Below are positions 25,621 through 64,000 of a stretch of 64,000 nucleotides of DNA, piece after piece. Below the pieces are notes generated by a model. It was given only the letters and a program-made list of their open reading frames with translations, was not told where the DNA came from and made no database searches. The position numbers were made by a program, and so were the translations under genes. The DNA is from Dudresnaya verticillata (taxonomy: Eukaryota): assembly GCA_977862235.1 (NCBI GenBank), contig OZ374561.1, positions 2,294,001 to 2,358,000 of the forward strand, written 5' to 3'. Position 1 is the stretch's first letter. Every line of letters starts with the position of its first letter.

Positions 25621-25811
25621 AAAGAGAGAGGCATGCCCAGATTTCTCCGGGGGCATAGCGTCGACCACTCTTATGACGAAGCTGCATCCAAGAAAAGCGC
25701 GCCTTTTCCCGGAAATTTGACACGTACGCATCGTGTAGCATCCTCTTACAGGATCGCCCTCGCTATTCATTGAGTACGTTTCCTGTGTATAAACGAGTCT
25801 ACACATCACGA
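25621..25811. repeat. Direct repeat copy at 5' end of DIRS/PAT element
   Basis: Matches 12538-12729. Confidence 0.92.
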
Positions 25812-25824
25812 CAAATGTATTTTT

Positions 25825-27040
25825 TGTAGTGCTATACAATCTTTCCTGCTATGACTAAAGCTACATCCTATGACTTATGACTTACGAAGCCGGCATACGT
25901 TTGTATCTAGGCATCACGTAAGCCGCATGCACTCCGCAACGCACAGCAACCCCACACGGTCTCGAAACCTATCCTGTCGGGGCGACATGTGGGACGCTGC
26001 GACGCTATACCGACTGCGGTGTTGCCAATGATGATAAAGAAAGAAAGGTAAATGCCATCTCGACGTTGACACTGCCATCCGTGCCATCCGCCTGTCGGCG
26101 CCAACCATGCCATCCGCCTGTACCAACTGTGGAAGAATGAGCCGCGGCAGAAGTGCTGGCGCACTGTAAGTCCTGTGTGCGCATCAAGGTGTAAGACGTG
26201 CACTCGCATCAAGCTGTAAGGCGCGCACAAGCGCAGTGCGCTGTAAGGAGGATGGGCCCCGCTGGCGTCCCTGCTGGCACCAAATTTGATGGCGAATTGC
26301 CATTGGGTAATTTATTGTGGCCGCTCACGCGGCCCGACGCGGTACTACCACTCATCCGTATTTCTAACTGACAACAGTATTATTAGAATAATAATTACAG
26401 CGAGAATAGCTTAGATTAGCTCATAGGAGGTATGAGCATTTCCGGCTCTGTTATACTTAATAGGCCCCTGAGTAGCAGGGGCCTCCTGATTAGAACACCA
26501 CGGTGGGTTTGGGTCTTTTTCCCTTTTCTGGAATTCACGGACTCACCGTACCTTTTGCCCCTTTCAGGCGCTCTACGAGCCTATTCTCCGCGCGACGGAA
26601 GCTCTGCGCGAGCTGGGTAGCGCCACCTTTCCCTTTTTCCCTTTTTCCTAGGCTTTGTGCCCTTTTCCCAAGTCTCTACCAACACCCCTTTTCCCCCCGA
26701 GCTACCGAAGCTAGTGTTGGCCATAGGACAGGTGTCCTGGTGGTTTCCGTTCTACCTGGCCCCGTGGCCATTCTACTACACCAACTCTGCCATCCGCCTG
26801 TCGGTGTCAACTCGGTGGCAGCGCAGCTATGCCATCTGCGACCGGAGTCACGGTCACGATCACGTTACTGACATTTACCCCCAGCATTACAGCTTCCTTT
26901 CTATTTCTACCCCTGGCAACCCCGCGCCCTTTTTCCCGCCCTAGCGGCTTCTACAGTTTCCCAATAGAAGAATCTGCGGAGACCGCCACGGTCCGTACGG
27001 AAGGGCGCGGGGCCGCCACGTCCTTACAGATAGCATTACA
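25825..27040 (+). repeat. LTR-like segment, right boundary uncertain
   Basis: Starts TGTAGTGCTA, candidate end TAGCATTACA; clustered TGTAAG motifs, AT-rich core and pyrimidine-rich U5-like part as in the other LTRs; no TSD found. Confidence 0.45.
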
Positions 27041-28396
27041 GAAACATTTTGGCCAATAAGATTGCTTGTATGCATGTGTGTGCTGCGTCGTCGCCGCCGT
27101 CGCCGCGCCTTCCGTGCCGGCACACGAAGACCCACCCACGGGCGCACGCCACGGGCGAACGCACATTCACCCGCACGCGCGTGGGCAGGCGCGCCGCCAC
27201 GAGACCCTCCAAGCGGCGCGGGCCCTGCGTCCGCCACGGCGCCGGCAGAGGTACTGTAATGCCATTGCCAGCGGATGCCAGAGGCACCGTCACGGTCACC
27301 CACTACCATGACGACCTCTACAACATGGCATGACGTCAGACATATTGCCATTAATGGCTGTCGTCACCAGCGCCGTATCGACACGGTGCCAAACATGCCG
27401 TTACGGTCACCTAACCAATGACCTGCCCCTATTTCAGTGTAATAAAAGGCCTTACTGCTATTTCTGGCGCCATTTGTCCGGCATGAATTTAAGGTAGTAA
27501 ATCACCGACGCAAGACATATCCTGTCTGGGAAAGTGGCCAGGCTGTTCCCACCCTGCGTGCACAAAGGTATATCCCACCGCCCAGCTGCTGCCCGTACCT
27601 CCTAGCACCACTGTAGTGAAGTGAGCTTCGGCATTCGAAACGATGGAAATGCGTATAGTGTGGCCTGAACCGTTGCGGGATGTGTGCACGTGTACCCGTG
27701 TCGGTTTTGGGTGCATTGTTGTGTGCTGGCGTACATTGCTGTGCAGTAGTGAAGCGCACCAACCGAAGCGGAGTATTTGTAGTATTTATTCTTTATTTTT
27801 AGTGAGTCTGTGTACAGTGTGTAGAGTAGCGCGCCAGCCAATGAGAACGCTGCGCATGTCCGTGTCGGAGATTGGGACCAGCAGGGCCGATTCCACCACA
27901 GGACCAGACCACTAGGGTCTGGCCCCCACGGACCGGACCGCTCGGTACCACCCTGACTTGTATATCAGGGCGGCCCCGCAGCGGATCCTAAGGTAAACGG
28001 GTAAGCAACCTTAGTCCAATCCTTTACGGTGTTCCCCGCGCCGAGCCCGTTGCGGTCTACCACCACCACCGTTACGGAGTCCTTCCCGGTACTTGTACCA
28101 CCCCCTTCTCTGTTGCTTCCCAATATCTGTCTCGGTTAGCCGCTCGCTGTTCTCCCATTTCGGTGCGAACTGCTCTACCACCCCGTGGAGGTAGTGTTGC
28201 TCTCGTCCGTCAAGGAAAGTCAGGCCAGCTGTCCGTCTCGGAGTTCGTGGGTTTTCACTACACCACAACCACGAAACCCACGTACCCTACACTCGCCCAT
28301 AGATATCTGTGCCACAACCGCCACCTCCATCTCCGTACCGCAGCGTCCATCCTTTCACAAGCCCGACTCCCAACACGCCTACACCGCCCACGTCTC

Positions 28397-28565
28397 TCAA
28401 GCCGCGCAAGTCGCGCAAGCCGATCTAGTTCCAGACTCCCCAGACTCCAAGCAACTCGACCAGGCCCCGTAAGCCTCCGCAAGCCCCGCAAGCCCCACAA
28501 GCCTCGCAAGCGTCCGTAAGCCTCTCAAGTCCCTGAATCCCCTAAAGTCGTTCAACGCTCTCAAG
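28397..28565. repeat. Degenerate 9-bp minisatellite (CAAGCCCCG-like)
   Basis: GCAAGCCCC-GCAAGCCCC-ACAAGCCTC-GCAAGCGTC array. Confidence 0.75.
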
Positions 28566-28717
28566 TAACGTGAAATTCAGAAGCTGCAAAAGACCCCAAG
28601 CCCGCCGAACATCACAAGACTCCTGGGCAGTCCCACACTACCTCTTGCAGAGCGCCTTCGCAGGCGCTCTCATTTCAGTTAGGGCCTCTCGAATACTTCA
28701 ACTTGTAGCGTCATCCT

Positions 28718-31090
28718 ATGTCGCAAGACATATATGTCTCGAAGGCTACGAATTTGCCTGAGATGAAAAGCAGCAGCACAGGCGATCAGCCGATGCAGGT
28801 TGCGGTGCGACACGTTGGAAGAGCACGTTCCGTCTCTCCAATTACCCACGCAGTTCGTACAATTGAGCACGTGCCGAACTTTGACAAGATCATCCGTCCG
28901 GTTAGCTAGTTCCGAATGTTGGGCTATACTGCATCTATGTGCAAACAAGGTTTCAAGTTTGACGAGCCGATTGTCTTCAGCGAGCCCATCTTCGAATGCG
29001 ATGGGCACCGCGTATTTCTGCCCGAGTACGCTCTGTGCGGGAACCACCGCACAGGGTCAGCTCGTGATGCTGGGCTGCATATTTTATACGGTCACATCAT
29101 CCGGAGGAAGCAAGTTATTGATGTGTACTACAGCATCAAGGCACTAGAAGGAGTGCTGGAGGGACGAGCTGAGGAGAAGAGTGTCGTCGTGGATCGGCTG
29201 TATAGGTCAATTCACTTCTATGTGATTGTGACCAACACGCAACAGGCCTCTCCAACACCTTACTCGGCTTTACAGCAGGCTGTTGTTGTCTGTACGATTG
29301 TTCGAAGCCACCCGTTGGTCTCCAAAGGGAAGACGAAGGACAAAAAAATCTACGGCGGGGCGTTGTTTCTTCGAGAGCGCTTGTTCGCGAATGCGTTTGA
29401 AGCCCACGATCGTAATCACTTCCTTTTGTGCACAACGTACCATCCTCGCCATCTGAACAGGATTCCACAAGGTTGCTACGCGCTAATCGAGACGCATGTC
29501 AAGGAGGAAGACCCTGTTATGGGCAGTAGAACGAACATCCTAGATGTTCTACTGTACTGGGAATCTATCTCCCGCATCCCGAAGTTTGAGGATACATACA
29601 TTTCATATGCCTCGGACATGCCTGTGTCTGACATGCGTACTATTATCCGGTAATGTTGCAAGGCGATTCGTACGTGCAATCACAACTTCAAGAATGGCGT
29701 TGTATTTCCTGCGCCGTTCGGCACTGCCCATTTCAACGCTGCCAAGAACGGCAAACTGGAGGAGTGGTTTGCAGGGACGGACAAATCGCTTCGCGGCGTG
29801 CTGGCCAAACGGATGACGGATATGCAGATTCGCGAGCAGCACGCTGGGAAGAAGCCGAAGAGCAGGGATTCCGAAGACGAAGAACCCGGCGATGAGGTGA
29901 GGATGAAGAGGAAGGCTCGAGCGTTTAAAGCAGCCCAGACACGCGCAAGAAACAAGAAGAAGCGCGAGGAGCTTGCTCTGGCATCCAGAAAGAAGAAACG
30001 TAGGAGGGAGAATGAGAAGAAGGCTGAAGTTGAGAAGGAAAAGACGAAGAAGAGCAAGGTTTCAAAAAGCCCTGCAACGGCGAAGCTGAACAAGAGGAAG
30101 ACGGATGTGGCTGACTCCGAGGAAGATGCTCCAGTAGTCTTCCACGGTGTAATTGATCTCACACTTTCCGACTACGAGGAGTCCGCAATCGTTCCCGTCG
30201 AGAGAACTACCCCCGTTGAAGTGAAGCAGGAGCCGACTGACGACAGTTTGGCTCAGAAGGGCCCTTCTGTCGCCGCCGACACTCAAGGCCCCGAAGCTAC
30301 AGCGGCAAGCAAAAAGAATGTCGGGCAAGACATATATGTATCGGAGGGCCATAACATGCAGGAGTCTCAGAGGGGCGATGAGACCCAAGACATAGATGTC
30401 TTAGCGGGCCACTATCAAGGACCACAGAAGAAGAGTGGAGCGCAAGACATACATGTCTTGGCAGGTCAGAAAGGTTCAGCCAAGGGAGCTGAGAGACCAG
30501 ACACCGCTCTTGACTTCGGGAAAGCACTTGACTCCACCGCTCGTGAGAACAGAGCTGGAGGCAACAAGATTTCTGAACTCCGGGATGCGCCACCCGTTGA
30601 TCCCCGCGATAAAGTGATAGCCGACCTTCGTCGCCAGGTAAGCGCACTTACGGCGAAGGGGAATCCCAGTATCAACGTCGCTTCGAGTGAGTATTGTGCT
30701 CCAGTGTTGGATACAGTTGGAGGTTCACGAGATGAAATGTTCGAGAAGAGGATACAACTAGAAGTGGAGAAGCGCGTAGCGGAGATGCGAACGAAAGGGC
30801 TTTTAAGTGAGGCTCTAGCACCGTTTGGAACTGCCGCTATCAAGAAAAGTGAGGCCGAACCCATATCATGCTTACAAGCGGAGAAGAACCAGATGGAATC
30901 TGAATTCAAGAAGATGAAACAGTTGTTCGAAAAGAGAAATAAGGAACTGGCTGCTGCGAAGAACCGTCTAGCACAAACCGTTCCCAGTGCCATTGCTCCA
31001 CCGCGAACGAGACGAAGTACTAGACGAACTGCGGGGACTGCAGATACTGCAGTTACTGCAGGCATTGATGTATCGGAAGTTCCAGTGTAG
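28718..31090 (+). pseudogene. Orphan gene (~790 codons), globular N-half, Lys-rich/coiled-coil C-half
   Basis: ORFs 28718-28909, 28916-29653 and 29798-31090 are all in one frame, separated by single stops (28907 TAG, 29651 TAA). Confidence 0.7.
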
Positions 31091-31385
31091 TCATTTTCAA
31101 GGGAGCAACTTATCGAGCTGCAGAATCGTATCTCGAGTACACTAGGAATGCTGTAGTTAGCCGGTGATCGATTTTCTCAAAGACATTTTATCTCATTGCT
31201 TGGGACATGTCACAACATGCAAATACCACAACTCCACCATAAACTCTTTTGAGCTATAGCTAGCTCGATTCAACACATTTGTTCAACTTGTCTTCAAGAC
31301 AGATATGTCTTGAACACAACCATATACCTCAGTGATTCCACACAATTGCAAACAAATCCAAGAGCCCATGTAATGCATTCTGGAT

Positions 31386-33213
31386 TCAATCGGAATCCGG
31401 CTCGAATTCCGCTGCGGCAGAGTAGTCCTTGTCATCTGCATTGGAGGACTCTTCTTCCTGAGCAGCTTCCTCGAAACGCTCATCCAAATTTTCAGGCACT
31501 CCGGCGAGAATACGCTCACGGGCAGCACGGATTTCTTGCGCATATTCCTTCCTCGTCCCCGGTATGAAAGCTAGGCCTCTCAAATGATGCTCTGCAGCAT
31601 CTGATCCCGGAGCACTTCGATTTGGCGCAGCCCGACCGGAATCTTGTGGACGGACTGCACTTGTCCCACACGTTTCCGATTCCTGCACATCCTTCTCCTG
31701 ACGGTCACCCTCAACCCCCTCTTCGACTGACACCGCGCCCACACCTACACCTCTCCCACCTTCCTCCTGCTTCTTTTTCTTCTTCTCCGGAACGAAAACC
31801 GTGTCAGAGCCGCTTTAATCATCAGGACTATCCGATTTCGTGGCTTTAATAGATTTAGTGCTCCGACCTTTCTGACAAGCGGGTCTAGCACGATCCACAG
31901 TTCCGGTCTTGGCGCGAGACATATATGTCTTGACGGGGATTTCTTCGACTGGTTCATCTTCATCAGTGGTGAAGTTCATATCCAGGGATTCACCTGACGC
32001 GACACTCCACCCAGATGATGGGGAAGTGTTCGCTATACCGCACCAGAAAGATGGCTGGTGAATTTAGAGGATGTCTTGCTTCTGCAGCCCTCTGGCGACT
32101 GAGGATGAAATATCTACATCTTCGAAGCAGCCCGGTGTGACCCTCATAGAATCTAGGATAGTGCGTGGCACATTGAGATGGGCTTCTTTCTCCAGACGCC
32201 CCATCTCTTCCATGTATATTTCACGTGCCGCGTCGTATTCTGAAGCATATTCCGAGATGGGGGTATCGGTATAGCAGCAACGGGACAAACGATGTCCTCC
32301 CGAGGGTTGTAGTGGTGCGACTCCGGAAACGTTGCAGCGGCCTTGTCCACATCGAAAAGACACCAGGAAACGAGACGACTGGAAGCCACGCGAATGTCGT
32401 GTGGAAGGTCAACCGTGAAGGGACGGTCGCCCTGTACGATGAGAATATCGCCGGGGTACAGTCTTCTTTTTCATCCCCCTCACGGTAGAATGCGGTATTA
32501 CTCATTGCGAGACGGTCTGGCAGGTTCTCGCCACTAATAGTGATGACAGAGTCTGCAGACGAAGCAGTCACCATGTCAAAACGTAGATGTGGACTAAAAA
32601 GGACATTCTTTCCCTGCTCCGGCACGGATGACGGGATCATCAACTCGAGTTCCGAACCGAGGTAGAGGAAGCACCGAAACGACGGCGGGTATTCACAATC
32701 TTTGAAGAAAGAGTTACAAAACCCTCCCGTAGACGGACTGAGAAGTTCGGGTGGTGATGCGTAGAAAGCTCGCCCAAGCCCTGCACGCATGAACTCGGCA
32801 ACTGTTGCCATCACATTTGTGAGGTGCATCTTCTTGTCGAAGAACTTTTCTTTCACGAGCCAAGCTACGTCCGGTTTAACGTTAAACGGGCTGAACATGG
32901 TTTTCTTCTCGGCGCAATCAGGACCGGCCTCATAATCCTTCCTCCACATCCCCACAGTGCGCCTCGAGCGCAGATCCCCGTCTCTGACTGAAAACGTTTC
33001 CGGCTCACACCAGAGAAGATACTTGGAGCCTTCCGCGCGGAGGGCGTTGAACCATACTTGATGATTTCCCTTGGCATACAACGACACCTTTCGGCGCCGG
33101 GCCGAGGGAGCGTTAACGGACCGAAGTGAAGTTCCTAGCACGCCGTAGTCGCGGCTTCGACTCTTCGTCGAGGCGTTCGCGTCCGACGGTTTCATCACCG
33201 TATCCACCTCCAT
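31386..33213 (-). pseudogene. Orphan gene, frameshifted, acidic C-terminus
   Basis: 330-aa ORF 32221-33213 continues through shifted frames (32153-32389, 32064-32363) into acidic ORF 31386-31742. Confidence 0.5.
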
Positions 33214-33782
33214 GCTCGTATGTGTAGGTCTTGTGTTCGTCCTTGGACAGCTGGTACGCTAATCTCACATTAGTAGGCGCGTGAGGATGGAGAGGAAAGC
33301 TCGAAAGGGTATGCCGTTGTCAAAACGACTTGCCAGTCGAACGTGGCTTGCGAACCGGGCAATTTGAGGTAGACTCTGGAATCAGGTCCAAGACATAATA
33401 GGTCTTAAACGTTATGATAAAAACTCGCGTTTCAGACGGTCCGGAATTACACTATTTTTAGGACTATGTTTTGCTGCAGTGTACCGTTGGAGCCCAGATG
33501 GAATACGAATTTAGATTGGATTACTGCTGTTCGACGGGCCCGTGGTCCGGGCCTACGGGCCCGTCGTACAGCTGTCCCGTGGCCCCTGCCCAAGGGCCCG
33601 TCGTACAGCAAGCCTGTGGAGCTGGCTCGAAGTGAAGTGATTTCAACGCTGCGGTTGCAAACGCATGGCCTCGACCCGGCTCAATCTCCAGACTGCTTAG
33701 AGAGATCAACCGATAAGACCGCGGCCGAACCGCGCGGTTCCAACGACGACCCGCGGAAGCCCGCAGATCTACATGCGAGTGT

Positions 33783-35232
33783 GTGCACGCGCGCTTTCTC
33801 ACACGTGTGACACCTGCGAACGACTTCGGCACAAGCATGGAGGACAAGGATGAGGGTATGTTTGGATACCTCCAACGTTCCATGTATTTGGAGCAGGAGA
33901 AGTGGGGAGATGAGGAGATGTTTGAGGAGGGGGAGGGGCAGCTACCACGGAACGGGAGAGGAGGGCTGCTGCGCGACGTGCTCTCAGAGAGGCGTAGAGT
34001 TCCGCTGCAGCTGTTCGCGGAAGCCGGAACACTACAAGGCTCACGACAAAGAGGGCGCAGGATACTACAGGGGTTGAGACATATATGTCTCCCCCACTTC
34101 CCCGGACTGAGCTCGCGCGCGCCCTCAGACAGTACTCGCCATACTACAGTGGTTGAGACATACATGTCTCCCACGCTTCCGCGGACTGAGCGCGCGAGCG
34201 TGCGCCCAGACAACACTCGCCGTACTGGAGGTGTGGTTGCGACAGTAGCTCACCGACGAAGAGATCCTGTTCTCAACCCGCTGAATGCAGAAGAGAAGAA
34301 GAAGCTAGTCGACTGCGAAGACGATGAGCTGCAGGTTGGGAGAATCACCGTTGAGCCTGGCATGCTTCGCAACTTGCGAGGCTCGTTTGACCCAGAAGCT
34401 TGGATGAATGACGACATCATGGATAGCTTCGCTACGAGGTTAAACGAGAGGTCCAAGCGTCGACGTGACAAGTACGGTTTCGGAAAGAAAGTTCACATCA
34501 CTTCAGTGCACGTGAAGAGCTTCGTACATCGTGAGAAGACTAGAGCGACCGACGGCTGGATGTTTCTACAGCATGCGTTATTTTCTTTAGAAGAACTTGA
34601 CGTCATAATGTTTCCGTATAACCAGAACAACGAGCACTGGGTTCTAGCTGTATTTGACATGAAAGCGAAAACAATTCTGCTGCACAATCCTTATCACTGC
34701 GAAAAACCGGACGTTGTCCCATTACAGAATGTTTCTTTCCTCCGTATGGGCCGAGAAGACCTCGCTTAAAATCAAGTTCGAGAGCTGGAGTGTTTATCTC
34801 AGCAAGGCTTTTCCCAAGCAGAAGGATGGTGGGTCCTGTGGGGTTTTCGTCATGTGGGTGATGGAATTCATGGAGCGCGGGGCCGTACCGTCTTTCGTTC
34901 AAGCCGACATAGAATTGCTCAGGCAGAAGACAGAATTGTTGCTAAGGGGTCACGATGTTCTCCCTCTTCAATGGCAGGGATCGGCTTTGGGCAGCGAGCG
35001 TGCTTCTGGTGTTTTAATTAATGTTCAGGACAAGGTTGCTAAAGCAATCAGGGCGGAAATCGCTAGTATTGCGAAGAAAGAAAAAATTGTGAAGTCAAGG
35101 GGTAAGAAGGCTTCTGCTCCAGCGAGAAATGCGCAAGGGTCCGATAGGGTCGCTGTGTCTGCCGGTCCGACTTATGTCGACAGCCCAAGGCCAGCGCAAA
35201 ATGAGAAGACAGCAAAGGGATCTCCCCTATAA
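33783..35232 (+). pseudogene. Ulp1/SENP (peptidase C48) SUMO protease, frameshifted near 34720-34760
   Basis: WMNDDIMDSF, MFPYNQNNEHWVLAVFD, then PKQKDGGSCGVFV (His-Asp-Gln-Cys catalytic set). Confidence 0.9.
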
Positions 35233-35528
35233 GAAACGGCTCCTCTCTCGCAGATGGAATCGAGTCAGGGTCGTCCAGCTGTAACTCCCGCGCGAGTCTG
35301 CACGATTTCCAGCCTACCGTAAGCAAGAAGAGTCCTGTCGAAGGGGAAAGCGAGGAAGCTCTAAGGCTCTTAACGGCTCTCCAGCCCATTAAGCGGATCG
35401 AGAAAGGCCGCTCTCACGAAAGCGGCCTTGCGCGGCCGCGTACTCGTGAGGGTGGGCAAAGCACTGCGACGGTATCACCTGCTACTGTCGCACCTGTCAC
35501 TGTCACAGTATCCTTCGACGCGTCTTCG

Positions 35529-36257
35529 TTGCTCCGACGAGCGGTGCGAAACAAGAAGGTGAATCTAGGCCGAAAGACCCACACGTCGCGTAAAGCGAGG
35601 GACAAGAAATTCGAGACGAGTGGAATAGGGCTTTCGCGCTCCGCCATAGAAGACATTGTTATCCCGCGGAGGCATAGGACGTGCAATATTCCTCACACAC
35701 GAACAGTGCAGGAAAAGGAGAAAGACGAGAGAATATCTGATTTAGAACTTCCCGTTCTATCAGACTTGCCCCCGCTAGATGAACCTGTCTCGATGGTCGG
35801 CGTTGTGGACAGGAAGGCTCCTACGGATGTCCGGAAGCCTGTAGACATATCTGTCTCCTATCCCAAGCCCGGCCATCGACAAGAAGTTGAGATGGGCAAA
35901 GAAGATTCCGAGAAGGTCGCCGTGAAGGGTCGACCCTTTCTCGATCGAGACATACCTGTCTCCCCAACCACTGCTGGGGATGAAGATGCGGGCGAAGATG
36001 GTGAGGCGCCCAAGGGAGGTGCTGAGTGCGCCGTGAAGGGTCGAGACATATCTGTATCCCCAACCAAGTCTGGGGATGAAGATGCGGGCGAAGATTTGGA
36101 TGTACGGAAAGGGATGCAGGCGCCCAAGGGAGATGCCGGGAAGTTCATGCACGAGGCGCGCCCACCCGCGGGTGACAGATCAGTGTCGTCTGCAGATGGA
36201 GAAGATTCAGGGCAGGATAAGTACGTTGAAGTGTTCAGGCCAACTCCTGAGTCGTGA
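35529..36257 (+). CDS. Low-complexity repetitive ORF, probably the C-terminal tail of the Ulp1 gene
   Basis: Repeats DI(S/P)VSPT..GDEDAGED; same strand, directly downstream of Ulp1. Confidence 0.4.
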   Translation: MLRRAVRNKKVNLGRKTHTSRKARDKKFETSGIGLSRSAIEDIVIPRRHRTCNIPHTRTVQEKEKDERISDLELPVLSDLPPLDEPVSMVGVVDRKAPTDVRKPVDISVSYPKPGHRQEVEMGKEDSEKVAVKGRPFLDRDIPVSPTTAGDEDAGEDGEAPKGGAECAVKGRDISVSPTKSGDEDAGEDLDVRKGMQAPKGDAGKFMHEARPPAGDRSVSSADGEDSGQDKYVEVFRPTPES

Positions 36258-37268
36258 GGGAGGCGTAACCCTCGCAAACCACGCAGAGTAGGAAGTGCTC
36301 AGCAGGTTGCTTCTGTTACAGATGGACCGCGTATCGACAACAGAAGCGATAACAGCGAAGCGTCCCTGTGACCGAAGCGCAACAGGAAGAAACCAAAACG
36401 CTATCAGCATTGATAATATTCATATTGCAAGAGAGCGTACGTCCGAACGTGGTGTCGTGGACGTACTCTTGCTGCTAAACTTTGTAAAGTGGGCTGTATG
36501 TGAATAGTGTCGTGTGTGTCGTGTGAAGATCGTGTCGTGATGTTTTGTGTGGGCGAACAGGCGAAGCTATATATAGCCTGTTCGCTGCAACATGATACTA
36601 ATGTGAAGGAGAATGTGCGTGCGCTGTAACTATGGCACACCTTGTGTGGCTGTAGCTCTCATGGCACACTTCCATAAGAGTGCATCTGTTGTCGTTGTGC
36701 AGTGCACTCTGTTACACATGTGGGAATGAACACGTGCACACGAGGACATAGTACAGCATCTCTTGATATGGTATGACTTTCTCCTAACATGTTGTAAAAG
36801 AATGGCAATTATTCTATCAGTTGTTGATCAGTTCCGTTAGTCTAATTGTATTTAACTACATATTTCGCTCAATTGAAGTACAATTCCACACGGACAATAG
36901 GAGTGATTGTGGTGCCGAGAGCAGCTGCTACCGAGCTAGCTCGCCAGCAATTTCTTAAGCTTCAGTGAGTCAATTATTACGTGCTTGAGGGTCATCGTGA
37001 CGTGACGCGCAGGGTTCTGCTCTCGGTACAACACGATCGATGGATAGACACAGACTAGAGTCTATCGATAGAGCGTGTTAAACACTACTTATCACTACGT
37101 CGTCTTCTTTCTCTTCGATTCGTTCGGTTCCAGTGTGTACTCACACTGTACATTACGTTGTAAGACTTTCAGCCGAAGCCGATTACGCGTTCTTGAGATA
37201 CTAGGAAAAACAGCCTCACGCGAAACAATTCTTGACGGAAAATGCTCTCGGAATCTTTCCAGGTACGT

Positions 37269-38755
37269 CTACAGATACCCCTTCGCAGAAGCACATATTC
37301 TGATGAGGTTTCGACTCAGACCCGAAACGCATAGTCCATCCAATGAAGTGCAGAGAGAAAGTGCGGTATATACCATGCCAGGTGGTTTCCAAAAACGCGT
37401 CCTGGAAAAGTCGACCGATACCCACTGCAGTGTCATTCCTTGACACTTGTGAATAGCTACTGCATATCCAGGTATAAAAGCGAACTGTGTGCGGTATGCC
37501 AGTACTTGCGCCCCTCGATCCCTTACTGAAAATTCTTGTGGCCACATCTCGAAGTGTTGTGTGGAAGATCCCAGCAATTTTATCCGATACTTCGTACGAC
37601 ACCAGCAGAAGTACCAGGAACAACCGCTGTTATCTATACGATCGTTCCCGGTAGGTGGGAGCCTGTTCTCCTGGTCAGAATGACGTGAGAACCCACTTTC
37701 ATCCTCACTTCATCTGGGGCAGCATTCCTCAATCGTCTTGATGTAGTTTCATCACACCCCAGGACATATCTGTCTCGGGCTGAGTGAGTAAATGACTTCG
37801 ACGGGATCTTATCCAAAATATCGTTGCTATATCGAGACACATCTGTCTTATACAAAAAAAGTTCTGTTCGGTGAATGAATGGCTGATCACGGGACGCAAC
37901 TCGACTCCGCCCAGTACCATTGACGGTTTTGATATCATCATCCGTACAACTACCGTCGTGAAAACGCTGAAGCATCTCGAAGAATTCCTTGTCACCCTTT
38001 TGTCTGTGATTCGTATAGAGAATCCAAATGACACCCGTACCGAAGCCTCCAAACGTGAGAAACCACGGACTGGATAGATGAACAGGCAGATTTTCATGCG
38101 GTAACGAATCGTGCTGTGTAATGGGGCCCAGCTGAAGTGGATCCCCGCATAGCACGACTTGTCGGCCGCCAAACGGAAGTGCTACAGAGGCCTTCGAACT
38201 CCCGTAGTGACGAAGGACTGAATCTACAGCCTCTAGAACCGCGGAAGGAATCACAAAAACCTCATCGATAATAAGTACCTTAATTTGCCTGATCTCTTCC
38301 ACTCTTCTCTTAGATTTCTTCACTTCCTGCAGCAATACTTCCTTGCTGGCGGCCCAATTATCAGAAATCCCAAACATACTGCTGAGGCTCTGACCGCACA
38401 AAGTGGTAGCGGTTGCGTTGCTGTACCCACAAGCGGCAACAACCGGAAAATCTCCAAAACGTTCACGGGCGAACCTTAGCATGTACTCCAGCAGGAACGA
38501 CTTCCCGCTCCCAGCACCCCCCATCAACGCAATTGACTTCCCTGCTCTGAATAGGTGGTAAATGCACTCCTGAACGGGGTCAAGGCAAGGAAGCTCAGTA
38601 TCAGCACTTGGAGGGCAGGTACATGCTTCCACCAAAATGGTCAATAATTCTCGAAGCTTCGACGCGTCGGTGCAAGACGCAGGGAGCACAAGCCGAAGAC
38701 AGAATTGTGTCACAGGAATCCGTTGAAGGAAGCACAGATATCCCGAGGCTTCCAC
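37269..38755 (-). pseudogene. Pif1-family SF1B DNA helicase, disrupted near 37580-37640
   Basis: GGAGSGKS, IIDEV, PFGGRQVVLCGDPLQLGPI, NHRQKGD, KVGSHVIL, AIHKCQGMTL, GMVYTALS. Confidence 0.93.
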
Positions 38756-39571
38756 TGCTACCGGCGAGAAATATCACTGCCGTCGGAGAGTACGGGATCC
38801 AGGAGATCCAAAATGCGTTCGGGCACTCCGAACGCGATCCGGTAGAATACACGGAGCCCAACGAAGGCAGGGGCACATGCGCGGCGGAGGAAACCGGGTT
38901 AGGGAGCACGGGAGATGTGTTTGGGAGAAGGTGGGGGGTACCGGCCGGACTGTGCCCGGGGATACCTAGCTGTGAAAGAAAAAGATGGCAGTCGCGCCAT
39001 TACGATGCGTAAACGTTTGCTTTTCGGCGAGATGTCGGCTGAATTGGCGGGAGAACCACGGATGAAAAGACACGCTATCAGTTACATGACCTCCATGGAA
39101 GGGCCTTTCTAACGCAACGTGGACATATGTGCATATGCACGTGCGACCATATCCACAACTCGGGAGACTAATTTTAATCTCAACTCTCGAGAGTACGGTA
39201 AGGATGCTTAACGTTTCAGCTCTTCCAATCAAAAATTCGAGATCAAGACATGTATGTCTCGGCTGGTGCCACTTGTCGAAATATTGTCTGAGAAAATAGC
39301 CTTCTGCTACATGACTTGGAAACTGGGCCAGAGACACAGCAATGCATCATATATCGAGAGTCTGAGGCATTTGCGGGAGATGTCGTAGCCGTTACATATG
39401 CCCCCATGGCGCTTTCTACAATTTCTAGAACTTGATCATGAATGATGGCGCGGCTGCGCGCATCCTACGATATATTGTATACCAGGCTAGTCCTACAGCT
39501 ATCAGAACGTGGATATCCCGTCGTCCCCACTTCAACAAAGTCCCCATTGAAACTACTACAACAGGACACAT

Positions 39572-42500
39572 ATGTCTAGCGCTACCGGTTGGTCCTCAGA
39601 GGATATCCATCGCATACCATCCACACTTCTACAGGAACAGAATTGGTCTAGTACTCCGCTCCACGATAGCTCCATTCATCATTCAGTGAAACACACAGAA
39701 ACTACGTCAATTGATGAAAGTACTGTACGTGCTATTCAAAACGTTTTGCTCTTGGAGAGCGCTCATGCCGGCGACCCGAGTGAACAATATTTCCAGGGAA
39801 TTGCCCTGCCGCACACGTCAGAACTCACCTACGGCGTAGTGATTCAGCAACGGCCAGGAACGAAGCATGGTCACGGTCGACGTCCCTTCGCGGGCGATCC
39901 AAAGGAGCGAAGGAAACGAATACCAAGGCTTTTGTCAACATTGATATACAGAACAGTGGTAGATCTCTTCGGGGGAAGCATCAATTCAGTACTGAATGAG
40001 ATGTCTGGCATTATTACAGATGTATTGAACCAAGAACAAGACCGGATCTCCCCTACTTGGAGACAGGATATGTCTCAATGTCTCACGGAGGAGAAGTCTC
40101 TTAAACAGAATGAGAGGAATTGGTTTCATGTACTCAGCCGGTGCCCACTTCTATGCATCTCCACACGGCTACCTTACTCACAAGTAGGAATAGCCGGAAC
40201 GAGATCCATGGATCGACACGTCGTCAGCACTTGGCTTGGGGTAGACCATGTCTTTTACTGCAGCTGTGTCGGTATCACTGAGTTTCGCATCAATGGCGCA
40301 AAACCCCAAAGTGAAGACAACTCTTGCATTCACGTGCAGGGTTTCCGACTGGCCTTAGCAAAACTCGCAAAATGCTGCGGTCTTTCCCTTGACAAGTCTG
40401 CACAAATTCTCGCTGAGCTGTATTCACGAACTTGTCAGAACGACATCGAGACATATATGTCTGGGTGTCCAGATATACAAGATATGTTTGACAAGAGGGC
40501 GCGTCTCGTCTCAATGAAAGTTCAATTCCCCTCCGATGAATTTCTTCACTTTATCCCGGTGCGAGCTCTCAAGAAAACGTTACATGTCTGTGCATTCTGT
40601 GACACTACGTTTTGTGGCGGCTGCATGCACACACGTGTTGTTCAGACACTCCGGAAAGAAGAAATGTGCCCGGAAGATGACGAAGAGAATCCCATTACTC
40701 CATCACCAACTGTCCACACCACGGACCTCCCACCGTCAATCTCCAAGCTTCCAGTTTCCCCCGTTAATTGCAAGAGATCCATAGCAGTAGACCTTTCGAT
40801 TGGGTTGCTTGCAAGACAAGGGAACCCATTCCTATCTCTTGCCCCCAGAAATTGTCAACGCTGCCAATCATCAAGGAAAGAGAATTCTCGAAAATTATGG
40901 ACTGACGGAGTGCTCATGAGCACAATCGGTCCTTGTGCACTACATGTCGAAGAGTTTCAATGCTCTCGTGAGAACTGCTATGCAGTGATAGTGGCTGACG
41001 GTCGGGAACACTGTATTCTCCTAGAGTCCGTTACCTCTGCTGCCACACACGCTCTGTTACGCCGAGAAATCACTGGGGTTGTGGTTGGAAATGGAACGAT
41101 CAGTAGCCGCCTCAAGCACTATCACTCTCAGGCCACGGGTGTCATCACCTGCGGTTTCCTGCCTTCCACCGTACCTTGCCGCTCAACGCAAAAACTACAA
41201 GACCTATGCTCTTGGATGATCAGGTTGATGACTTTGCGTCCTGATCCATGTCTCTTTGAGTGCGAGACATGCACATCAGACACAGACGATATCCCCGCGC
41301 TTTGCATCGACGGCATTCAGTTGGGATATGTAAAAAGCAAGCAAGTACCGCTGAAGAATATTCATCAAGCCTGGGAGCCAATACCGCTATCGAATTCATC
41401 TAGGAACGGAACAACTCATCACCCACTAACCGGATTCTTCAGACGTGACGGTACATTTAAGACAATTCTCTCAGGAATCAAGGGGTCCACTGTGGACTGT
41501 ACATCCAAAACCGTTAAGGATGTCACGATGTGCATTCGGTTATTGTCAGAGATGGATTTCTTGGGCACTTTCCTCATGGAATCGATATGCGGTGCAACCC
41601 CTAACGAATACAGTAACGACATCGGGGAGAGTAGCTATATCCGCTCTATACGCAAATTGACGTTGTCCATATTTGACAAGGATGTCATCATGTGCAGGAT
41701 TTTTAAAACCTCTTCACGGATTCGTATCACAAACCTCCGTGGATTATATGAGAAGAAATGGAGCTAATCTATCTGGAAACATACCATCTCTGACTCTATG
41801 CCTGCAGCGGGAGCTTGCCTACCTGGAACGTCTACAACGCTCTGTTAGAAAAACAGGTGTAGCATGGGGTAAATTGGGTAGATAATTCTTCAGAGTGGAA
41901 CAAGGATGTCTGTCACGATCTCTTGAAAATGTACTCCATGTTTATTCAAGGACCCCTCTGTCATTTCATGCGAAGAACAGACATTATGTCTTTGGAAGCT
42001 CTAGGACATATATGTCTCCGCGGTGAACATTCCTCACTGCGCGATGCAATTGGAAATCCTGGCACCTTGCGTGCAGGAGAGGACGAAACAAGTATTCTAC
42101 AAACGTCCAGACTCATTCAAGCGGCCCTCCTCACTGTCTGCGAGATTGAGGCTCTGAAAAATGCCTTGGCCGGAAAGACTATGCGTACAGCCTTGGGTTC
42201 CGTCTTTATTTCCAGTGCTAGATGCGTCACCAGATTTTACATGTACTACCATGACCCCGTGTGTTCTAGTTCCGCGGTGTTATATGCAGAAATGTGGAAG
42301 TCCCAAGACAGAAATATCTTGCTCTCGAAAATGTCAGAGAGGTTCCCCCGTCAAACGGACTCGGCTGCAACTGACCTGGAATTGGCTTTGAAAACAGGGC
42401 AGTACTTTCCAGGACGAATGCAAGTGCGACCACTTCCCTTCAACAAGGATGAGATCACATCTCCTAGGGCAGAATCTGTTGGTCCATGTGCAAAAGACTA

Positions 42501-43074
42501 CTTACAACAGCAACAAAGCTATACCCCAGGAGCAATGACAATATCATGCGCTTGCACCAGCCCAATTACATTTGGTTCTAAGATTCTATACAGAAACGAA
42601 GGTCCAAAGATTGTTCCGGATATGCTCATGTCAAGATTTGCTAAGATCCCGAGATTCGTCATATATGACTTTGCCTGCGGCTTGTACAGCAGTGCTGTCA
42701 ATTCCCTCTGGTGGGCCCTCGAAGAAACTAGAATCCTTAGCGACAAGTTTCATGTCGGTAATCACAAGGCCTGCTCACCGTCTTTTAACCCGAATCACTA
42801 CACAGAACTGGATTCCAAGAACACTGTTTGTCACGAGCAGAGAAACAGTTCCATCCAGCAAATCTCGCCTTCTCTCCGGAACTGTGGTCACGTCCTCTAT
42901 ACTTCCTTACTAGCGTATCACACAATTGTTGCTAACATCAAAGCAAAAGCACGAGCATCCCAGAGATATGCTGAACGAGAAGCTCTTATGTCCGAACATG
43001 ATTTAGAATGGGCGTACTTCCACTGCTTGGACATCACCTGCCTCTGTTGCGCTCCCGTAGATAATGACAAGTAA
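39572..43074 (+). pseudogene. KDZ-superfamily transposase with SWIM-like finger and CxC cysteine clusters (two frames: 39572-41767, 41923-43074)
   Basis: YCSC...SCIH; CQRC...FQC...C..ADG CxC-like domain; FECETC..ALCIDGIQLG; PRFVIYDFACGL; SDKFHVGNHKAC; NTVCHEQRN; break may be a frameshift or an intron. Confidence 0.8.
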
Positions 43075-43374
43075 TTACTTGACCCCTAAACGTTAAAGTT
43101 GGTATGACTATGCCATAGAACTGAAATTAATAATAAGCTCATTAGTATTCAGGTGTTAATCCATTGCAATTGATCAATCAACCGGATGAAATTGCACCAA
43201 GCATATTCCTACTGACATAGCTAGAGTTCTGTTGAGCAGGGCTTATGCCACAAATAATTATTTTTAGCAGAACGTCGTAGGACGTTCTGCACGGAGCAGG
43301 ACATATATGTCCTGAGCACAAGTATATACATTGAATAGGACATATATGTCTACAAGTCGTACTTGCCCACTATG

Positions 43375-43560
43375 TATTTCACACGCATATACACGTACAC
43401 ACACACATATACATATATATATGGTATATATGTTTGTGTATGTGCATATGTGCAGATATATATCTGATATGTATAAGATATATATCTGCACATTCTCCAC
43501 ATACATGCGCATATGTGCGATTGCACCAAACATATTCATTCTGACATATGTAAAGCTCAG
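43375..43560. repeat. TA/CA-rich low-complexity, partly self-complementary tract
   Basis: ACACACATATACATATATATATGGTATATATGTTTGTGT etc. Confidence 0.8.
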
Positions 43561-43806
43561 GTGAGCATTCTGACATAGTATGTCAGAATGCCGGACGTTC
43601 ATGAACGTACTGCAGCACGGGCCTAGGGCCCCAGGGTTACTAGTAATGAAGCTTCACTTTGTGTACCGGAGTTTATACCGGAGCAGGACATATATGTCTT
43701 GATCAGAAGTATATTAACATGGTTCGAACAAAGCAGATCTGCTCAGGCTCGCCCAAGGACCAAACGTTGGCATTCGTTTATTGAAAGTAGTAAAGCAGTG
43801 TGCATT

Positions 43807-46612
43807 CTACCTACTACGGCCGTTGAGAAGAAGATTTGCATCCAATGCATCTGTACTACCGACGACAGGGGCCCTTCCTATAAAAGAAGGGCTTTCAGTA
43901 CCTGTCAAAGCCGGCGGAACCTGAGATACTCCCTCGCGCTCTGGCAGAGTGGGTGGAGAACGTGATGACTTCAGGGGTAGTCTAGTATTCTCAGATGAAG
44001 CGGGTTCTACAATGTCCATATGGTTTCCGTTCCACAAAAATGCCGCGCTTCCCTCCAAGTCCGACATGAACTTGGGGAACTGAAGGAAATGTCTCTCCCT
44101 TAGTCTCTGTGTGTATTCCCCAGCACTATACCAGTCTCGAAACGGATATAGAATAATATTAGCATCCAGCTTTTCTCCATTCCTCATTGTGGTTCCGTCG
44201 TTCTCTTCACAAGTTCTGGCTTTGAAATCACAAAGCTCAACAATATAATGTATGTTAACATTGCTGTCGTGTACTCCTCGATCTGGAACAAGAGCTTTTG
44301 TCATGTTAACACGCTGTCGGACGAGAATTGCGGTGCCAAGACCATCGGGTAACTCGTAGTCAATATTGACCCGTCCGATGGCGTCCTTCTTCCAGATAAG
44401 CGGTAGTTTCAGAAGTTGAGTTCGATCCAGGCCCGAAAACTTCGTACCTTCAAAAGCTTTAGTTCCCGTACTGTATGAAGACGCACGACTATACAGTCCT
44501 CGGGAACGCGTTCTCCTAGTACGTAGGAAGTGAAAGGGTCAACACTTCCATGACCAACGATGCTGTCCTTGTCATGTGTGCTTCCCAAATATATTTCACA
44601 GAAGGCCTGTGGCTTCTCTCGACAGCGCGGCAGGCACGCCTTTATCCCCCCGCAACTATCGGAGAGGAATGATTTTCTAGCATGTTCGTTCAATATTCGG
44701 CACAAATCAGCATAGTGCGCTTCATTAGAAAGCATGAGGGCCAGCACCGCGATGCATTCTTTCTTTCTATTCTTGCTTGCTTTCTTAATGTGAAGAGAAA
44801 CTTTGAAGTGACCTGTCACTTTGTATGCTTGTCCACGATGTCTTGAAAGATTTATAGCCGGAATGGCGACTACCTTACCTCGCAGTTGGTCTGGTATAAG
44901 TGTCTTGTACCGCATCCCTCCAGTTGTCCTTCCGTCCTGTCTTCTATGCGCTCTTTGCCGGGTGTAAAAAGCGCTTAGAACTTTGCTTGCAACGTGCGCG
45001 TTTACACAATCCAACGTTTTCGGTCTCGTTGATGAACTGTGCTTCGTCTCATAACTTGCGTCAAGAAGATACGAAATACATGAAGCGGTAGCCTCAGCAG
45101 AGAGAGTCATAACCCCTGAATTACCCAAGGGGCCATATTCTGCTGTTCGAACAAGGCATCCTCTTCTCGGAGTATTGTTCCTTGGTAAGACATGTATGTC
45201 TCTGACTCTCTCCTGGATCACTCCATTGTCTCTACCATCTCGAGCAGCTGATGCCGAGACAGTTCTGTCTTGGGCAGTCGGCGTGGGTGCCGAGACAGTT
45301 CCGTCTTGAGCAGACGGTGGCGGCACAATTTCTTCCTCATTGCCTCCGGTACCCCTTGAAGGTTCTATTAGGTGCTCCTGGGAACGCCCAAGTCCTGTGC
45401 GTGACCCGCTGGCCCCGAGAACAGGACCAGGACCAACCGAAATATCGGCCTCAGTGACGGGATGTGTAGACGGTAGCTCAGGTCCCTGTCGTACAAACGT
45501 CGTGCTGAAGACGGAGAACACCTCCGGGCCGTTCGGGAGCCCAGTGGGTAGCCGCTAATAGCGAACTTGGTAGAGCAGGTTGAACACGCCTCGGGCGGAC
45601 TGTAAACACCCAGGGCGAGCGGACAAAGGGGCAAAAAAACCCAAAAGGAAACACGTTAGCAACGGTTAGGAACGTGGAAACACGGATAGGTAGACGCTTA
45701 TGCTTCCGGGCAGCGGTAGGGTGCGCGCTGTCGCGGAAGGGAAGTCTAGACCCAAACTGGCTTGTCGGGGCTCTACTGTTACGTCCTGGACGAGGTACCT
45801 AAGTAATACTATGGAGCCGCGGCGCGGCGGCTGCATGACGTAGTGCGCGGGAACCCGGGAAGCGTGTCGCGTGGAGGTGCGTCTGACACGTCCCGGGACA
45901 ATGCAGCCGCTGTGCACCGGCACGTGCGTCTTACAGAGGCGCGCTCGCACGGTGCTGTAGGCGATCCGGATTCGGATCGAGATTGGCACCGTATTGCAGG
46001 CTCGTTTCCCTTACAGCGGATCCCGATGTCCGATCTGGATGTCGGATCCGGATTCGATCGGGATCCGGGCCAATCTGACAGTCAACTCCCTTACACCTCG
46101 TTAATCCCGATGCATCATCCAGATCGGCCCTTCAGCGTTGCGCCGTACAGTGCATCGGGCGTGCGCGACGCTGGGTTGTGGCACCCGCGCTCCCGTAGAC
46201 CAATCATCGATGACGTGTTCGCGCCAACAGCGAATGAGCCGTTCCAGGTGACCGTCCGTCGGTCGACGAGGTTCTCGGCGCCCATGGCGAGGAAATAAAA
46301 GCTCGGTCCCCAGTGCGCCACAGTCCCCAATGGCTAAAAAGGGAAGTACTTTTCCCGTTGTCCTTGTCACAATCTGTTCGCGCATAAAGTGCAAGAGAGA
46401 CGGCCAAGGTTTGAATCCTTCTGCACGTGGCGCTCGAGGACAGCTGCCAGATGCACTAGGGAGTTCAGTGAGGCAGCAACGAAATCACAGTCTGCATCGT
46501 CAACTTGTGCAAGACTGGTGGCGCATTCCGATATTCCTTCAAACGAGCCCATTTGTGCAACACCAGTTACTATTAATTCCAATGCTGATGAAGGGGACGG
46601 CGGGCAAGGCAA
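43807..46612 (-). pseudogene. Orphan gene interrupted by a solo LTR and frameshifts
   Basis: Removing LTR 45487-46322 and one TSD joins ...KSTSLFSHW|GPELPSTHP; 44409-45521 continues after a frameshift into 43807-44304; 5' end uncertain. Confidence 0.6.
45487..46322 (-). repeat. Solo LTR, divergent relative of the Gypsy A LTR
   Basis: TG...CA ends, TSD GTCCC at 45482-45486 and 46323-46327, reverse-strand similarity to 8524-9425 (TTTACAGTCCGCCC, CTGCTCTACCA). Confidence 0.92.
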
Positions 46613-46993
46613 AGCTGATTAAGGGGACCGTGGGCAAGGCCAAACGAGGGCACGTCTAATAACTGAAGAAGACGGCGATAAATGGAAAGGGAAGCACAAT
46701 TGGATATAATGGCAAGTGCGACATAGGTATACAATTAAAAAACGGAGTAAATTGCAAGTACAATACCACAAGATATTAATAGAATCTGAGTATTATTCAA
46801 GGGTATCAAGTAGCATCTGGAAGCAGATGTTCGTGGCTTTGGACGGTTACGAAGGCTAGATGGGTATTGTTACTGTTAACGGTATCCCAATTATTTTTTG
46901 TCAACGGTAAGCACTCCTTGCACTCCTTTGTTACCGTTAAAAGCATTGATGAGAGAGATTTTGATATTTTCTAAGGCACTGGAGTGACCAGCA

Positions 46994-50048: not shown

Positions 50049-50230
50049 ACAATTCGTGGCAAGGGGACATAACTGTCTGCACTTCCTGCACCTCCCTCGC
50101 CACCGAAAAGCTCATCAGCCCATCAGAATCATACTCGTGGGTTTTGGCATACCGATTTCGGTGCCACTTCGGTGATTTATTCGGCATATATTTACAGTAG
50201 GCAGAAAATACCGAAGTCACCACACAGAAA

Positions 50231-63998: not shown

Positions 63999-64000
63999 CG

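What the first reader, a model, noticed from the sequence alone, without database searches (positions are those of the whole stretch)
27513..45270. About 20 copies of a private palindrome RGACA-N4-TGTCY (consensus AGACATATATGTCT) stamped through the KDZ-like gene cluster
Seen: matches start at 28726, 30388, 30445, 31297, 31917, 34077, 34156, 35843, 35948, 37762, 37835, 39246, 39564, 40449, 42004, 43299, 43338, 43686, 45188, 45257, plus near-matches at 27513, 30328, 36044, 40061, 41979. I saw none in the other ~45 kb. A rough random expectation is about 1 per 260 kb. The motif sits in intergenic DNA and inside nearly every gene (orphans, Ulp1, Pif1, transposase) and is read in different frames and strands (QDIYV, RHICL, ETYMS), so the constraint is on DNA, not protein. 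Inference: binding sites for a dimeric element-encoded factor marking the whole element as self. Known analogue: Arabidopsis VANDAL elements encode a transposase, a Ulp1-like protein and the anti-silencing factor VANC that binds short element-specific motifs.
Basis: partly seen in the sequence, partly recalled or inferred. Interest (0 to 1): 0.88.

Follow-up and report, generated by a model that had tools for sequence, protein, structure and literature searches.

The report
Seaweed transposon stamped with private palindrome
A broken 19-kb jumping gene, probably from a red seaweed, carries 20 evenly spread copies of its own short DNA palindrome even inside its genes, likely as docking sites for a still unidentified protein of the element that would keep it from being silenced, and unrelated jumping genes beside it carry private tags of their own.

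Summary
RGACA-N4-TGTCY occurs 20 times in 28726-45270, once elsewhere (50065), against 0.26 expected; only spacer 4 is enriched. The carrier is a decayed KDZ/Zisupton-type transposon (transposase, Pif1, Ulp1, a conserved gene Y, two orphans), nearest named relative Chondrus crispus. Ends were not found. Sites arose in place without indels, exceed synonymous-codon shuffles (13 against 0.8; 66) and are evenly spaced (P about 0.006; 99). Eighty related loci hold one match. Unexpected: three neighbouring Gypsy families carry other private tags, whose arms covary like 4-bp stem-loops; the KDZ motif shows no such compensation. Best reading (0.5): double-strand sites for a dimeric element-encoded factor covering the element against silencing, working like VANC, TnpA or the proposed red-algal PAG3, but not a member of these. 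No binding protein was identified, and no second copy or genome was available. Main rival (0.28): stem-loop tags read on RNA or single-stranded DNA. New variant of a known kind; interest 0.66.

The parts
28726..45270 (.). 20 exact copies of RGACA-N4-TGTCY (28726, 30388, 30445, 31297, 31917, 34077, 34156, 35843, 35948, 37762, 37835, 39246, 39564, 40449, 42004, 43299, 43338, 43686, 45188, 45257), in 14 clusters; 18-bp consensus CAAGACATATATGTCTTG
27513..45306 (.). Variant sites: spacer 5 at 27513, 32283, 40061; spacer 3 at 41979; spacer 6 at 29614; one-mismatch sites at 29614, 30328, 35651, 36044, 38697, 41898, 42306, 45293
27400..46990 (.). Approximate extent of the KDZ/Zisupton-type element; termini and target duplication not found
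   Evidence: outermost variant site 27513; gene Y similarity runs to 46404; LINE begins 46988; terminus scan negative
28763..31090 (+). Orphan ORF1, about 775 codons with two in-frame stops; globular N part, basic stretch, motif-bearing repeats, coiled-coil-like tail; candidate binding factor
   Evidence: (read with X; no homologue among proteins of 426-1357 aa)
31386..33258 (-). Orphan ORF3, frameshifted; acidic tail carries the 31917 site; candidate binding factor
33837..36257 (+). Ulp1/C48 SUMO-protease-like gene in three frames with low-complexity flanks (four exact sites)
   Evidence: Pfam PF02902 E 7.8e-4 and 4.4e-7; homologue in L002
37216..38773 (-). Pif1-like helicase, C part in other frames (two exact sites)
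   Evidence: Pfam PF05970 E 3e-22; hits in 46 of 80 related loci
39572..43074 (+). KDZ-type transposase split over two frames (39551-41767, 41863-43074); probable start ATG lies inside the 39564 site; SWIM-like and Cys clusters, CIDG, YDFAC, DKFHVGNH, HEQRN
   Evidence: relatives match Pfam KDZ/CxC4/CxC5 and KDZ/CxC4 Atlas clusters at 0.96
43807..46404 (-). Gene Y, conserved companion gene of red-algal elements of this group; frameshifted and interrupted by a solo LTR; C domain predicted, weakly, as a small beta barrel
45487..46322 (-). Solo LTR of the Gypsy A group inserted in gene Y, 5-bp duplication GTCCC; carries Gypsy A tags, not the KDZ motif
50065..50078 (.). 21st exact match, beyond a LINE; either chance or a remnant of the element's right end

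Best explanation
The 20 palindromes lie in a decayed KDZ/Zisupton-type DNA transposon and are likely double-strand binding sites for a dimeric protein encoded by this transposon family, which would coat the element from end to end and keep its chromatin open against host silencing. Shown: the sites are sequence-fixed on both arms with a fixed 4-nt spacer, private to this element, gained in place by substitution (single sites in folded domains, locally duplicated pairs in low-complexity stretches), indifferent to frame, strand and coding status, and more evenly spaced than chance. Inferred: that a protein binds them; that it is element-encoded (candidates: orphan ORF1, orphan ORF3, gene Y, or the transposase itself); that each site protects a stretch of 1-2 kb, so that selection fills gaps; that the target is silencing, possibly helped by the Ulp1 SUMO protease. 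The host probably drives several transposon families to such tags, since three Gypsy families in the same 64 kb have their own.
For: 21 matches against 0.26. Spacer 4 only. 18-bp symmetric consensus, 24 sites inside and 0 outside at 14 bits. Half-sites behave nearly independently: 8 single-arm mismatches against 1 compensatory double change in the element (2 and 5 in the other 44 kb); R:Y pairing 15 of 21, as base frequencies predict. 13 sites in tested frames against 0.8 after synonymous-codon shuffling. No indel at the 4 exact sites and 2 of 3 variant sites aligned with homologues, whose residues differ (at 37762 two distant homologues are 3 residues longer, the closest is not; the 40061 region aligns poorly). 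14 clusters, largest gap 2160 nt against 3785 at random, P 0.006. 1 match in 80 related loci of 36 families. Precedents: VANC and TnpA bind family-specific motifs and reverse silencing, and transposases can do so themselves (PMC5735166, 10.64898/2026.08.24.746577; passages); a ParB-like gene with inverted-repeat arrays is proposed for red-algal elements (10.1101/2025.02.11.637652; passages).
Against: No DNA-binding domain was identified in any frame; the ORF1 model failed (pLDDT 33.7) and gene Y gave Z at most 4.0. The closest relatives with DNA (L001, L002) share transposase, Pif1, Ulp1 and Y but lack dispersed sites; L002 has only a tandem-like subterminal repeat. The neighbours' tags covary like stem-loops, which a degenerate dimer site does not predict, and weak pairing excess exists at two KDZ flank positions (p 0.015 and 0.024, duplicates included). 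Post hoc, spacer position 2 is A on the sense strand at 6 of 6 informative coding sites (p 0.016, about 4 independent). CpG is not depleted in any element (o/e 0.95-1.29), so VANC-type demethylation has no footprint here. One copy only.
Confidence: 0.5

Rival explanations
1. The motif is a stem-loop tag (5-6 bp stem, 4-nt loop) read on the element's RNAs or on single-stranded DNA, one of a set of family-specific hairpin barcodes in this genome; an element-encoded protein would license tagged transcripts or intermediates.
For: Gypsy A: 68 of 77 CGYY-N3-RRCG have complementary arms against 24.4 expected, and the stem stops at 4 bp (8 of 68 pair further). Gypsy B+C: outer pairs 20 and 20 of 24 against 11.5 and 8.5, next position 1 against 8.3; Gypsy D: 15 and 13 of 17 against 6.6 and 5.1. 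Compensatory changes at homologous LTR positions. The KDZ motif folds (RNA mean -3.0 kcal/mol; stem probability above 0.5 at 15 of 21 sites), occurs in every gene, tolerates spacers 3, 5 and 6, and shows the sense-strand A bias. The element has a Pif1 helicase. RGACA equals the m6A consensus (recalled).
Against: No compensatory changes in the KDZ arms (1 against 8 single-arm); both arms and most of the spacer are sequence-fixed; sites are as dense between genes as in them; any such palindrome folds by construction; a DNA transposon packages no RNA.
Confidence: 0.28
2. The sites are internal transposase (or helper) boxes that condense a 19-kb element and bring its ends together, with no role in silencing.
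For: Even spacing; SWIM-like and Cys-cluster domains in the transposase; L002 has repeated subterminal boxes; no clear terminal inverted repeats here.
Against: Related elements of similar gene content lack internal sites; retrotransposons without such an enzyme carry tags too; no enrichment towards the ends.
Confidence: 0.1
3. The sites are for a host transcription factor that the element has recruited to be expressed.
For: Spaced GACA/TGTC half-sites resemble sites of several eukaryotic factor families (recalled: p53 quarter-sites, ARF, SMAD). The window holds no host gene, so host-gene density is untested.
Against: No concentration in promoter-like intervals; uniform over coding DNA; none of the other elements in the window uses it.
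Confidence: 0.08
4. The sites are by-products: footprints of small insertions, tandem-repeat spread, protein sequence, or assembly artefact.
For: Some pairs are local duplications (34077/34156 share 32 of 40 flank bases, 43299/43686 25 of 40).
Against: No indels at coding sites; codon shuffles give 0.8; most flanks are unrelated; no tandem array covers a site; no Rfam match.
Confidence: 0.04

Closest known systems
VANC/VANDAL anti-silencing system of Arabidopsis (Hosaka et al. 2017, PMC5735166; Sasaki et al. 2023, PMC10398659; passages read)
   Same: Family-specific short motif accumulated inside a multi-gene DNA transposon, partly by local duplication; proposed self-recognition by an element-encoded factor.
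   Different: VANC motifs are 8-9 nt, non-palindromic and in non-coding tandem repeats of a Mutator-like element; here an 18-bp palindrome runs evenly through coding DNA of a KDZ element, and no VANC-like domain was detected.
TnpA of Spm/CACTA and AtMu1 transposase as sequence-specific activators (bioRxiv 10.64898/2026.08.24.746577; abstract and passages read)
   Different: Motifs cluster at termini and are non-palindromic; other superfamilies; binding is shown there, not here.
PAG3 (ParB-like plus 2OG oxygenase) of red-algal Plavaka and Zisupton elements (bioRxiv 10.1101/2025.02.11.637652; passages read, supplements closed)
   Same: Red-algal giant transposons with inverted-repeat sites and a proposed self-binding accessory protein; PAG genes are reported on Zisupton elements of Bangiophyceae.
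   Different: There tandem arrays lie beside PAG3; here sites are dispersed and in frame, and no ParB, methylase, SET or oxygenase domain was detected.
Zisupton/KDZ transposons (Kojima 2025, PMC12730594, passages; Ectocarpus giant KDZ, PMC12477816, passages)
   Same: Transposase type, large size, accessory genes, nested insertions.
   Different: Termini and 8-bp duplication not found here; element-wide palindrome coating is not mentioned in the passages read.
Plant Mobile Domain proteins of retrotransposons and MAIL2 palindromic motif (bioRxiv 10.1101/2024.09.27.615353; passages read)
   Same: Retrotransposon accessory proteins related to an anti-silencing fold; a palindromic target. An analogue for the antisense accessory frame of the neighbouring Gypsy A and C.
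   Different: No PMD or DUF1985 match for the Gypsy accessory protein or the KDZ orphans.

Membership tests
KDZ (Kyakuja-Dileera-Zisupton) transposons | KDZ-type DDE transposase with Cys clusters | tested here: met
   Full-length relatives of about 1190 aa align over both frames; D, D, H, E motifs shared; relatives hit Pfam KDZ/CxC4/CxC5, mostly below curated cut-off (7 of 26 scanned had any such hit); homologue P0015 maps to KDZ/CxC4 Atlas clusters at 0.96. The window protein itself has no Pfam hit.
Zisupton subgroup of KDZ | Terminal inverted repeats and 8-bp target duplication | tested here: inconclusive
   Scan of 25800-28720 against 46323-47060 and 49780-51800 gave only chance-level matches; ends are buried in nested insertions.
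KDZ transposons | Multiple dispersed copies or mobility | not testable with these tools
   No genome held.
VANDAL/VANC system | Mutator-like transposase | tested here: not met
   The transposase is of KDZ type.
VANDAL/VANC system | Target motifs concentrated in non-coding tandem repeats | tested here: not met
   14 of 20 sites are coding, in proportion to the 80% coding span; no tandem array covers a site.
VANDAL/VANC system | VANC protein (DUF1985/PMD-like domain) | tested here: inconclusive
   No Pfam hit for ORF1, ORF3 or Y; ORF1 fold failed; ORF3 was not folded.
VANDAL/VANC system | Protein binds the motif and removes silencing marks | not testable with these tools
   Needs binding and chromatin data.
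PAG3 (ParB-like) self-binding elements of red algae | Accessory gene with ParB-like and 2OG-oxygenase domains | tested here: inconclusive
PAG3 (ParB-like) self-binding elements of red algae | Tandem arrays of inverted repeats next to that gene | tested here: not met
   Sites are dispersed over 16.5 kb, at most three together.
Stem-loop tags like those of neighbouring Gypsy A-D | Complementary covariation of the arms | tested here: inconclusive
   Core arms show 1 compensatory against 8 single-arm changes; two flank positions show weak excess (p about 0.02); one copy only, little variation.

The most novel reading that the evidence does not exclude
In this red-algal genome unrelated transposon classes each carry a private barcode written through their coding sequence: an 18-bp palindrome in a KDZ DNA transposon and exact 4-bp stem-loops with compensatory changes in three Gypsy families, two of which share an unknown antisense accessory protein yet use different tags. 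These are read by fast-evolving element-encoded proteins as a self-versus-non-self code that works across DNA transposons and LTR retrotransposons, on folded single strands.
Probability: 0.3. Interest if true: 0.87.

Novelty: new variant of a known kind. Interest (0 to 1): 0.66.

Why it matters
Transposon self-marking against silencing is proven only in flowering plants (VANC, TnpA) and proposed for red-algal PAG3. Here the marks are written evenly through protein-coding DNA, which means selection strong enough to change conserved enzymes, and four families in one 64-kb window have distinct tags. [quoted passage not shown]

Tried and rejected
No whole genome was held, so no genome-wide scan. 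Sequencing runs: none was listed, so no reads were laid. Word-index protein search missed the transposase relatives; the full HMMER search found 894. ORF1 residues 40-330: no homologue among proteins of 426-1357 aa; other lengths not searched. Viral contigs: no relative of the transposase or of the Gypsy accessory protein; the exact 14-mer there gave scattered single matches. Apparent palindromes in L024, L035, L049, L070, L078, L079 are tandem-repeat products. My first control 'Gypsy D has no tag' was wrong: D has GCAGCGG. D's RTCGAY excess is mostly codon usage (21 against 12.4). Single-sequence fold of ORF1 unusable. Gene Y fold searches gave no match with E at most 0.001 and Z at most 4.0, Sm/SH3/WYL-like barrels. 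No link between the Gypsy accessory protein and ORF1 or ORF3. Profiles of other companion genes of the 60-68% GC loci found no window orphan. Termini not found; the 12-of-13 match 27496/50181 is at chance level. No Rfam family. Earlier-finding look-ups by place, sequence and a long word list were empty. Four Gypsy-like viral loci showed no comparable dispersed tag in three and a TGACGTCA excess in L204, too few and too distant for a control. The identity with the DrdI restriction site (recalled) was rejected as irrelevant.
Full report
1. Observation. With one mismatch there are 31 against 6.6. Of spacers 0-20 only 4 is enriched; spacer 5 has three copies inside (27513, 32283, 40061), spacers 3 and 6 one each. 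The consensus is an 18-bp palindrome, CAAGACATATATGTCTTG, and a matrix built from the 20 sites finds 24 sites at 14 bits in 27400-46990 and none outside.

2. The carrier. Pfam gives Ulp1/C48 and Pif1. The frames 39551-41767 and 41863-43074 are one transposase: 894 representatives score E at most 0.001, and the best, about 1190 aa, align over both frames. Seven of 26 relatives scanned hit KDZ, CxC3, CxC4 or CxC5, mostly below cut-off; homologue P0015 maps to KDZ/CxC4 clusters at 0.96; the D, D, H, E motifs are shared. In a quick tree (the careful search did not finish) the window protein lies in a 16-row set with support 98 that includes P0008, whose cluster holds a Chondrus crispus protein; the sister set holds Porphyra umbilicalis proteins. 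A florideophyte red alga is therefore the probable host (inference). The best 80 of 197 metagenome relatives were fetched; Pif1 is in 46 of them, Ulp1 in L002, gene Y in L001, and Y's C domain aligns with a conserved exon of the GC-rich loci (profile E only 0.093, top of 410 frames). Orphans ORF1 and ORF3 have no hit in these loci. The copy is dead: stops, frameshifts, a solo LTR in Y with a GTCCC duplication (Y similarity resumes to 46404) and a LINE at 46988. No termini or 8-bp duplication were found.

3. The constraint is on nucleic acid. In the frames tested there are 13 sites against 0.8 after synonymous-codon shuffling (the 3' part of ORF3 with site 31917 was not included, and one Ulp1 segment without sites was mis-framed). 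Against homologues, sites 40449, 42004, 37835, 37762 and variants 41979, 42306 show no indel to the closest relatives and different residues, so they arose by substitution. Pairs in low-complexity stretches are local duplications. 14 of 20 sites are coding, matching the 80% coding span. Merged at 110 bp, a threshold chosen after seeing the data, 14 clusters have a largest gap of 2160 nt against 3785 at random (P 0.006).

4. Privacy. One match occurs in the 80 related loci (L063), which fall into 36 families. Their own top palindromes are tandem-repeat products, and no dispersed word of comparable strength appears. L002 has a repeated box in non-coding DNA only. These contigs are partial, so orphans and ends may be missing.

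5. The neighbours. An unbiased scan showed that other elements in the window have their own tags. Gypsy A (1-9425) and its solo LTRs: CGYY-N3-RRCG, 25 against 2.6 in pol, 43 against 3.6 in the 3' extension, 9, 10 and 6 against under 1 in LTRs. Gypsy B (14112-22102) and C (57853-64000): GGRWWYCC, 20 against 2.9 and 17 against 1.7. Gypsy D (51751-57852): GCAGCGG, 11 against 1.3 in pol after codon shuffling, 15 on the sense and 5 on the other strand. The LINE, the DIRS-like and the Harbinger-like stretches have none. A and C share an antisense accessory frame (41% identity; one full-length relative) but use different tags; D has a tag without that frame. These tags covary: 68 of 77 A sites have complementary arms against 24.4, the stems stop at 4 bp, and homologous LTR sites show compensatory changes. 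They are stem-loops or perfect inverted repeats, not degenerate dimer sites.

6. Duplex or hairpin for the KDZ motif. Its arms do not compensate: 8 single-arm mismatches against 1 double change, against 2 and 5 outside; R:Y pairing is as frequencies predict. Weak excess pairing at two flank positions (p about 0.02, duplicates included) and a post hoc sense-strand A at spacer position 2 (6 of 6, about 4 independent) point the other way. With one copy this stays open; the duplex reading fits better.

7. None was identified. ORF1, ORF3, Y and the Gypsy accessory protein have no informative hit in Pfam, NCBIfam, PHROGs or PDB sequences. ORF1 folded at pLDDT 33.7; Y's C domain at 58.5 with only weak small-barrel matches. 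CpG is not depleted in any element, so the silencing opposed need not be CpG methylation; H3K27me3 marks transposons in distantly related eukaryotes (10.1101/2022.10.24.513474; search listing only).

8. Mechanism. Most likely (0.5) a dimeric element-encoded protein binds the palindrome, each site protects a limited stretch, and selection fills gaps even inside genes. Rivals: stem-loop tags on RNA or single-stranded DNA (0.28), internal transposase boxes (0.1), host factor sites (0.08), by-product (0.04).

9. Known systems. VANC binds 8-9-nt non-palindromic motifs in non-coding tandem repeats (PMC5735166, PMC10398659; passages); the Ulp1 likeness of a VANDAL gene is recalled, the word being absent from both texts. 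TnpA and AtMu1 transposase bind clustered family motifs (10.64898/2026.08.24.746577; abstract and passages). Petroll et al. propose that a ParB-like PAG3 binds inverted-repeat arrays of red-algal elements and report PAG genes on Zisupton (10.1101/2025.02.11.637652; passages); its supplements were closed and may list elements like this one. Zisupton ends are from PMC12730594 (passages), giant algal KDZ from PMC12477816 (passages), PMD from 10.1101/2024.09.27.615353 (passages). Iyer et al. 2014 was not held and is recalled. Unchecked notes of this scan describe other transposons coated with own palindromes, with ParB-like or zinc-cluster genes; they are leads, not support. Searches found no paper on coding-embedded private palindromes in algal KDZ or on family-specific dispersed hairpins in Gypsy elements; subscription journals and Repbase were not searched.

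10. Verdict. Real feature; works like VANC/TnpA/PAG3 self-marking but is not a member of those systems; new variant of a known kind. Interest 0.66, raised by the even, in-frame coating and by the neighbouring hairpin tags, limited by one dead copy and no reader.

Noticed in passing
window 1-9425, solo LTRs 22450-23361 and 45487-46322: Chromodomain Gypsy A is stamped with CGYY-N3-RRCG (77 sites in 9.4 kb), arms complementary in 68, stem stops at 4 bp, compensatory changes between LTRs.
   Followed up: yes
window 14112-22102 and 57853-64000: Gypsy B and C carry NN-GGAWWTCC-N'N' with covarying outer pairs and strong avoidance of a further pair (1 of 24 against 8.3), plus GGG-N5-CCC.
   Followed up: yes
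window 51751-57852: Gypsy D, with a nearly intact 1407-codon pol and no antisense accessory frame, carries NN-GC[AGCG]GC-N'N' stem-loops, 15 sense and 5 antisense; candidate dispersed RNA signals.
   Followed up: partly
window 5825-8084 (-) and 58898-60469 (+): Unknown Trp-rich accessory protein of about 520 aa, antisense to pol in Gypsy A and C; one full-length relative P0163; no family hit; candidate reader of the Gypsy tags.
   Followed up: partly
window 24068-24140: About nine telomere-like GGGGTTT(T)A repeats inserted in the reverse-transcriptase region of a DIRS-like element.
   Followed up: no
window 49927-50048 and 47006-47042: A 36-bp inverted repeat (97%) just after the LINE, whose outer arm resembles, inverted, the LINE's 5' edge; possibly a small TIR element split by the LINE.
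   Followed up: no
window 50201-51750: Myb/SANT-like frame tail to tail with a transposase-like remnant, Harbinger-like by my reading (recalled features; no Pfam hit), cut by Gypsy D.
   Followed up: no
window 43191-43591 and 33523-33610: AT-rich nested palindromes between transposase and gene Y, including TTCTGACATA-G-TATGTCAGAA, and a GC-rich hairpin between ORF3 and Ulp1.
   Followed up: no
L002 6444-6630 and 8592-9170: Repeated box TATCAGTG-N4-ACCTCAGA at about 73-nt spacing in non-coding DNA of the closest relative; probably subterminal repeats.
   Followed up: partly
L003-L080: GC-rich relatives (Porphyra-type) have a three-gene core: transposase, Pif1 and a long third gene whose last exon matches gene Y.
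   Followed up: partly
L082 1705-1740 and 2979-3014: A viral contig has two tandem pairs of AGAC-N6-GTCT sites, like repressor operators; unrelated to the element.
   Followed up: no
window 39564-39577: The transposase's probable start codon lies inside a motif copy.
   Followed up: no
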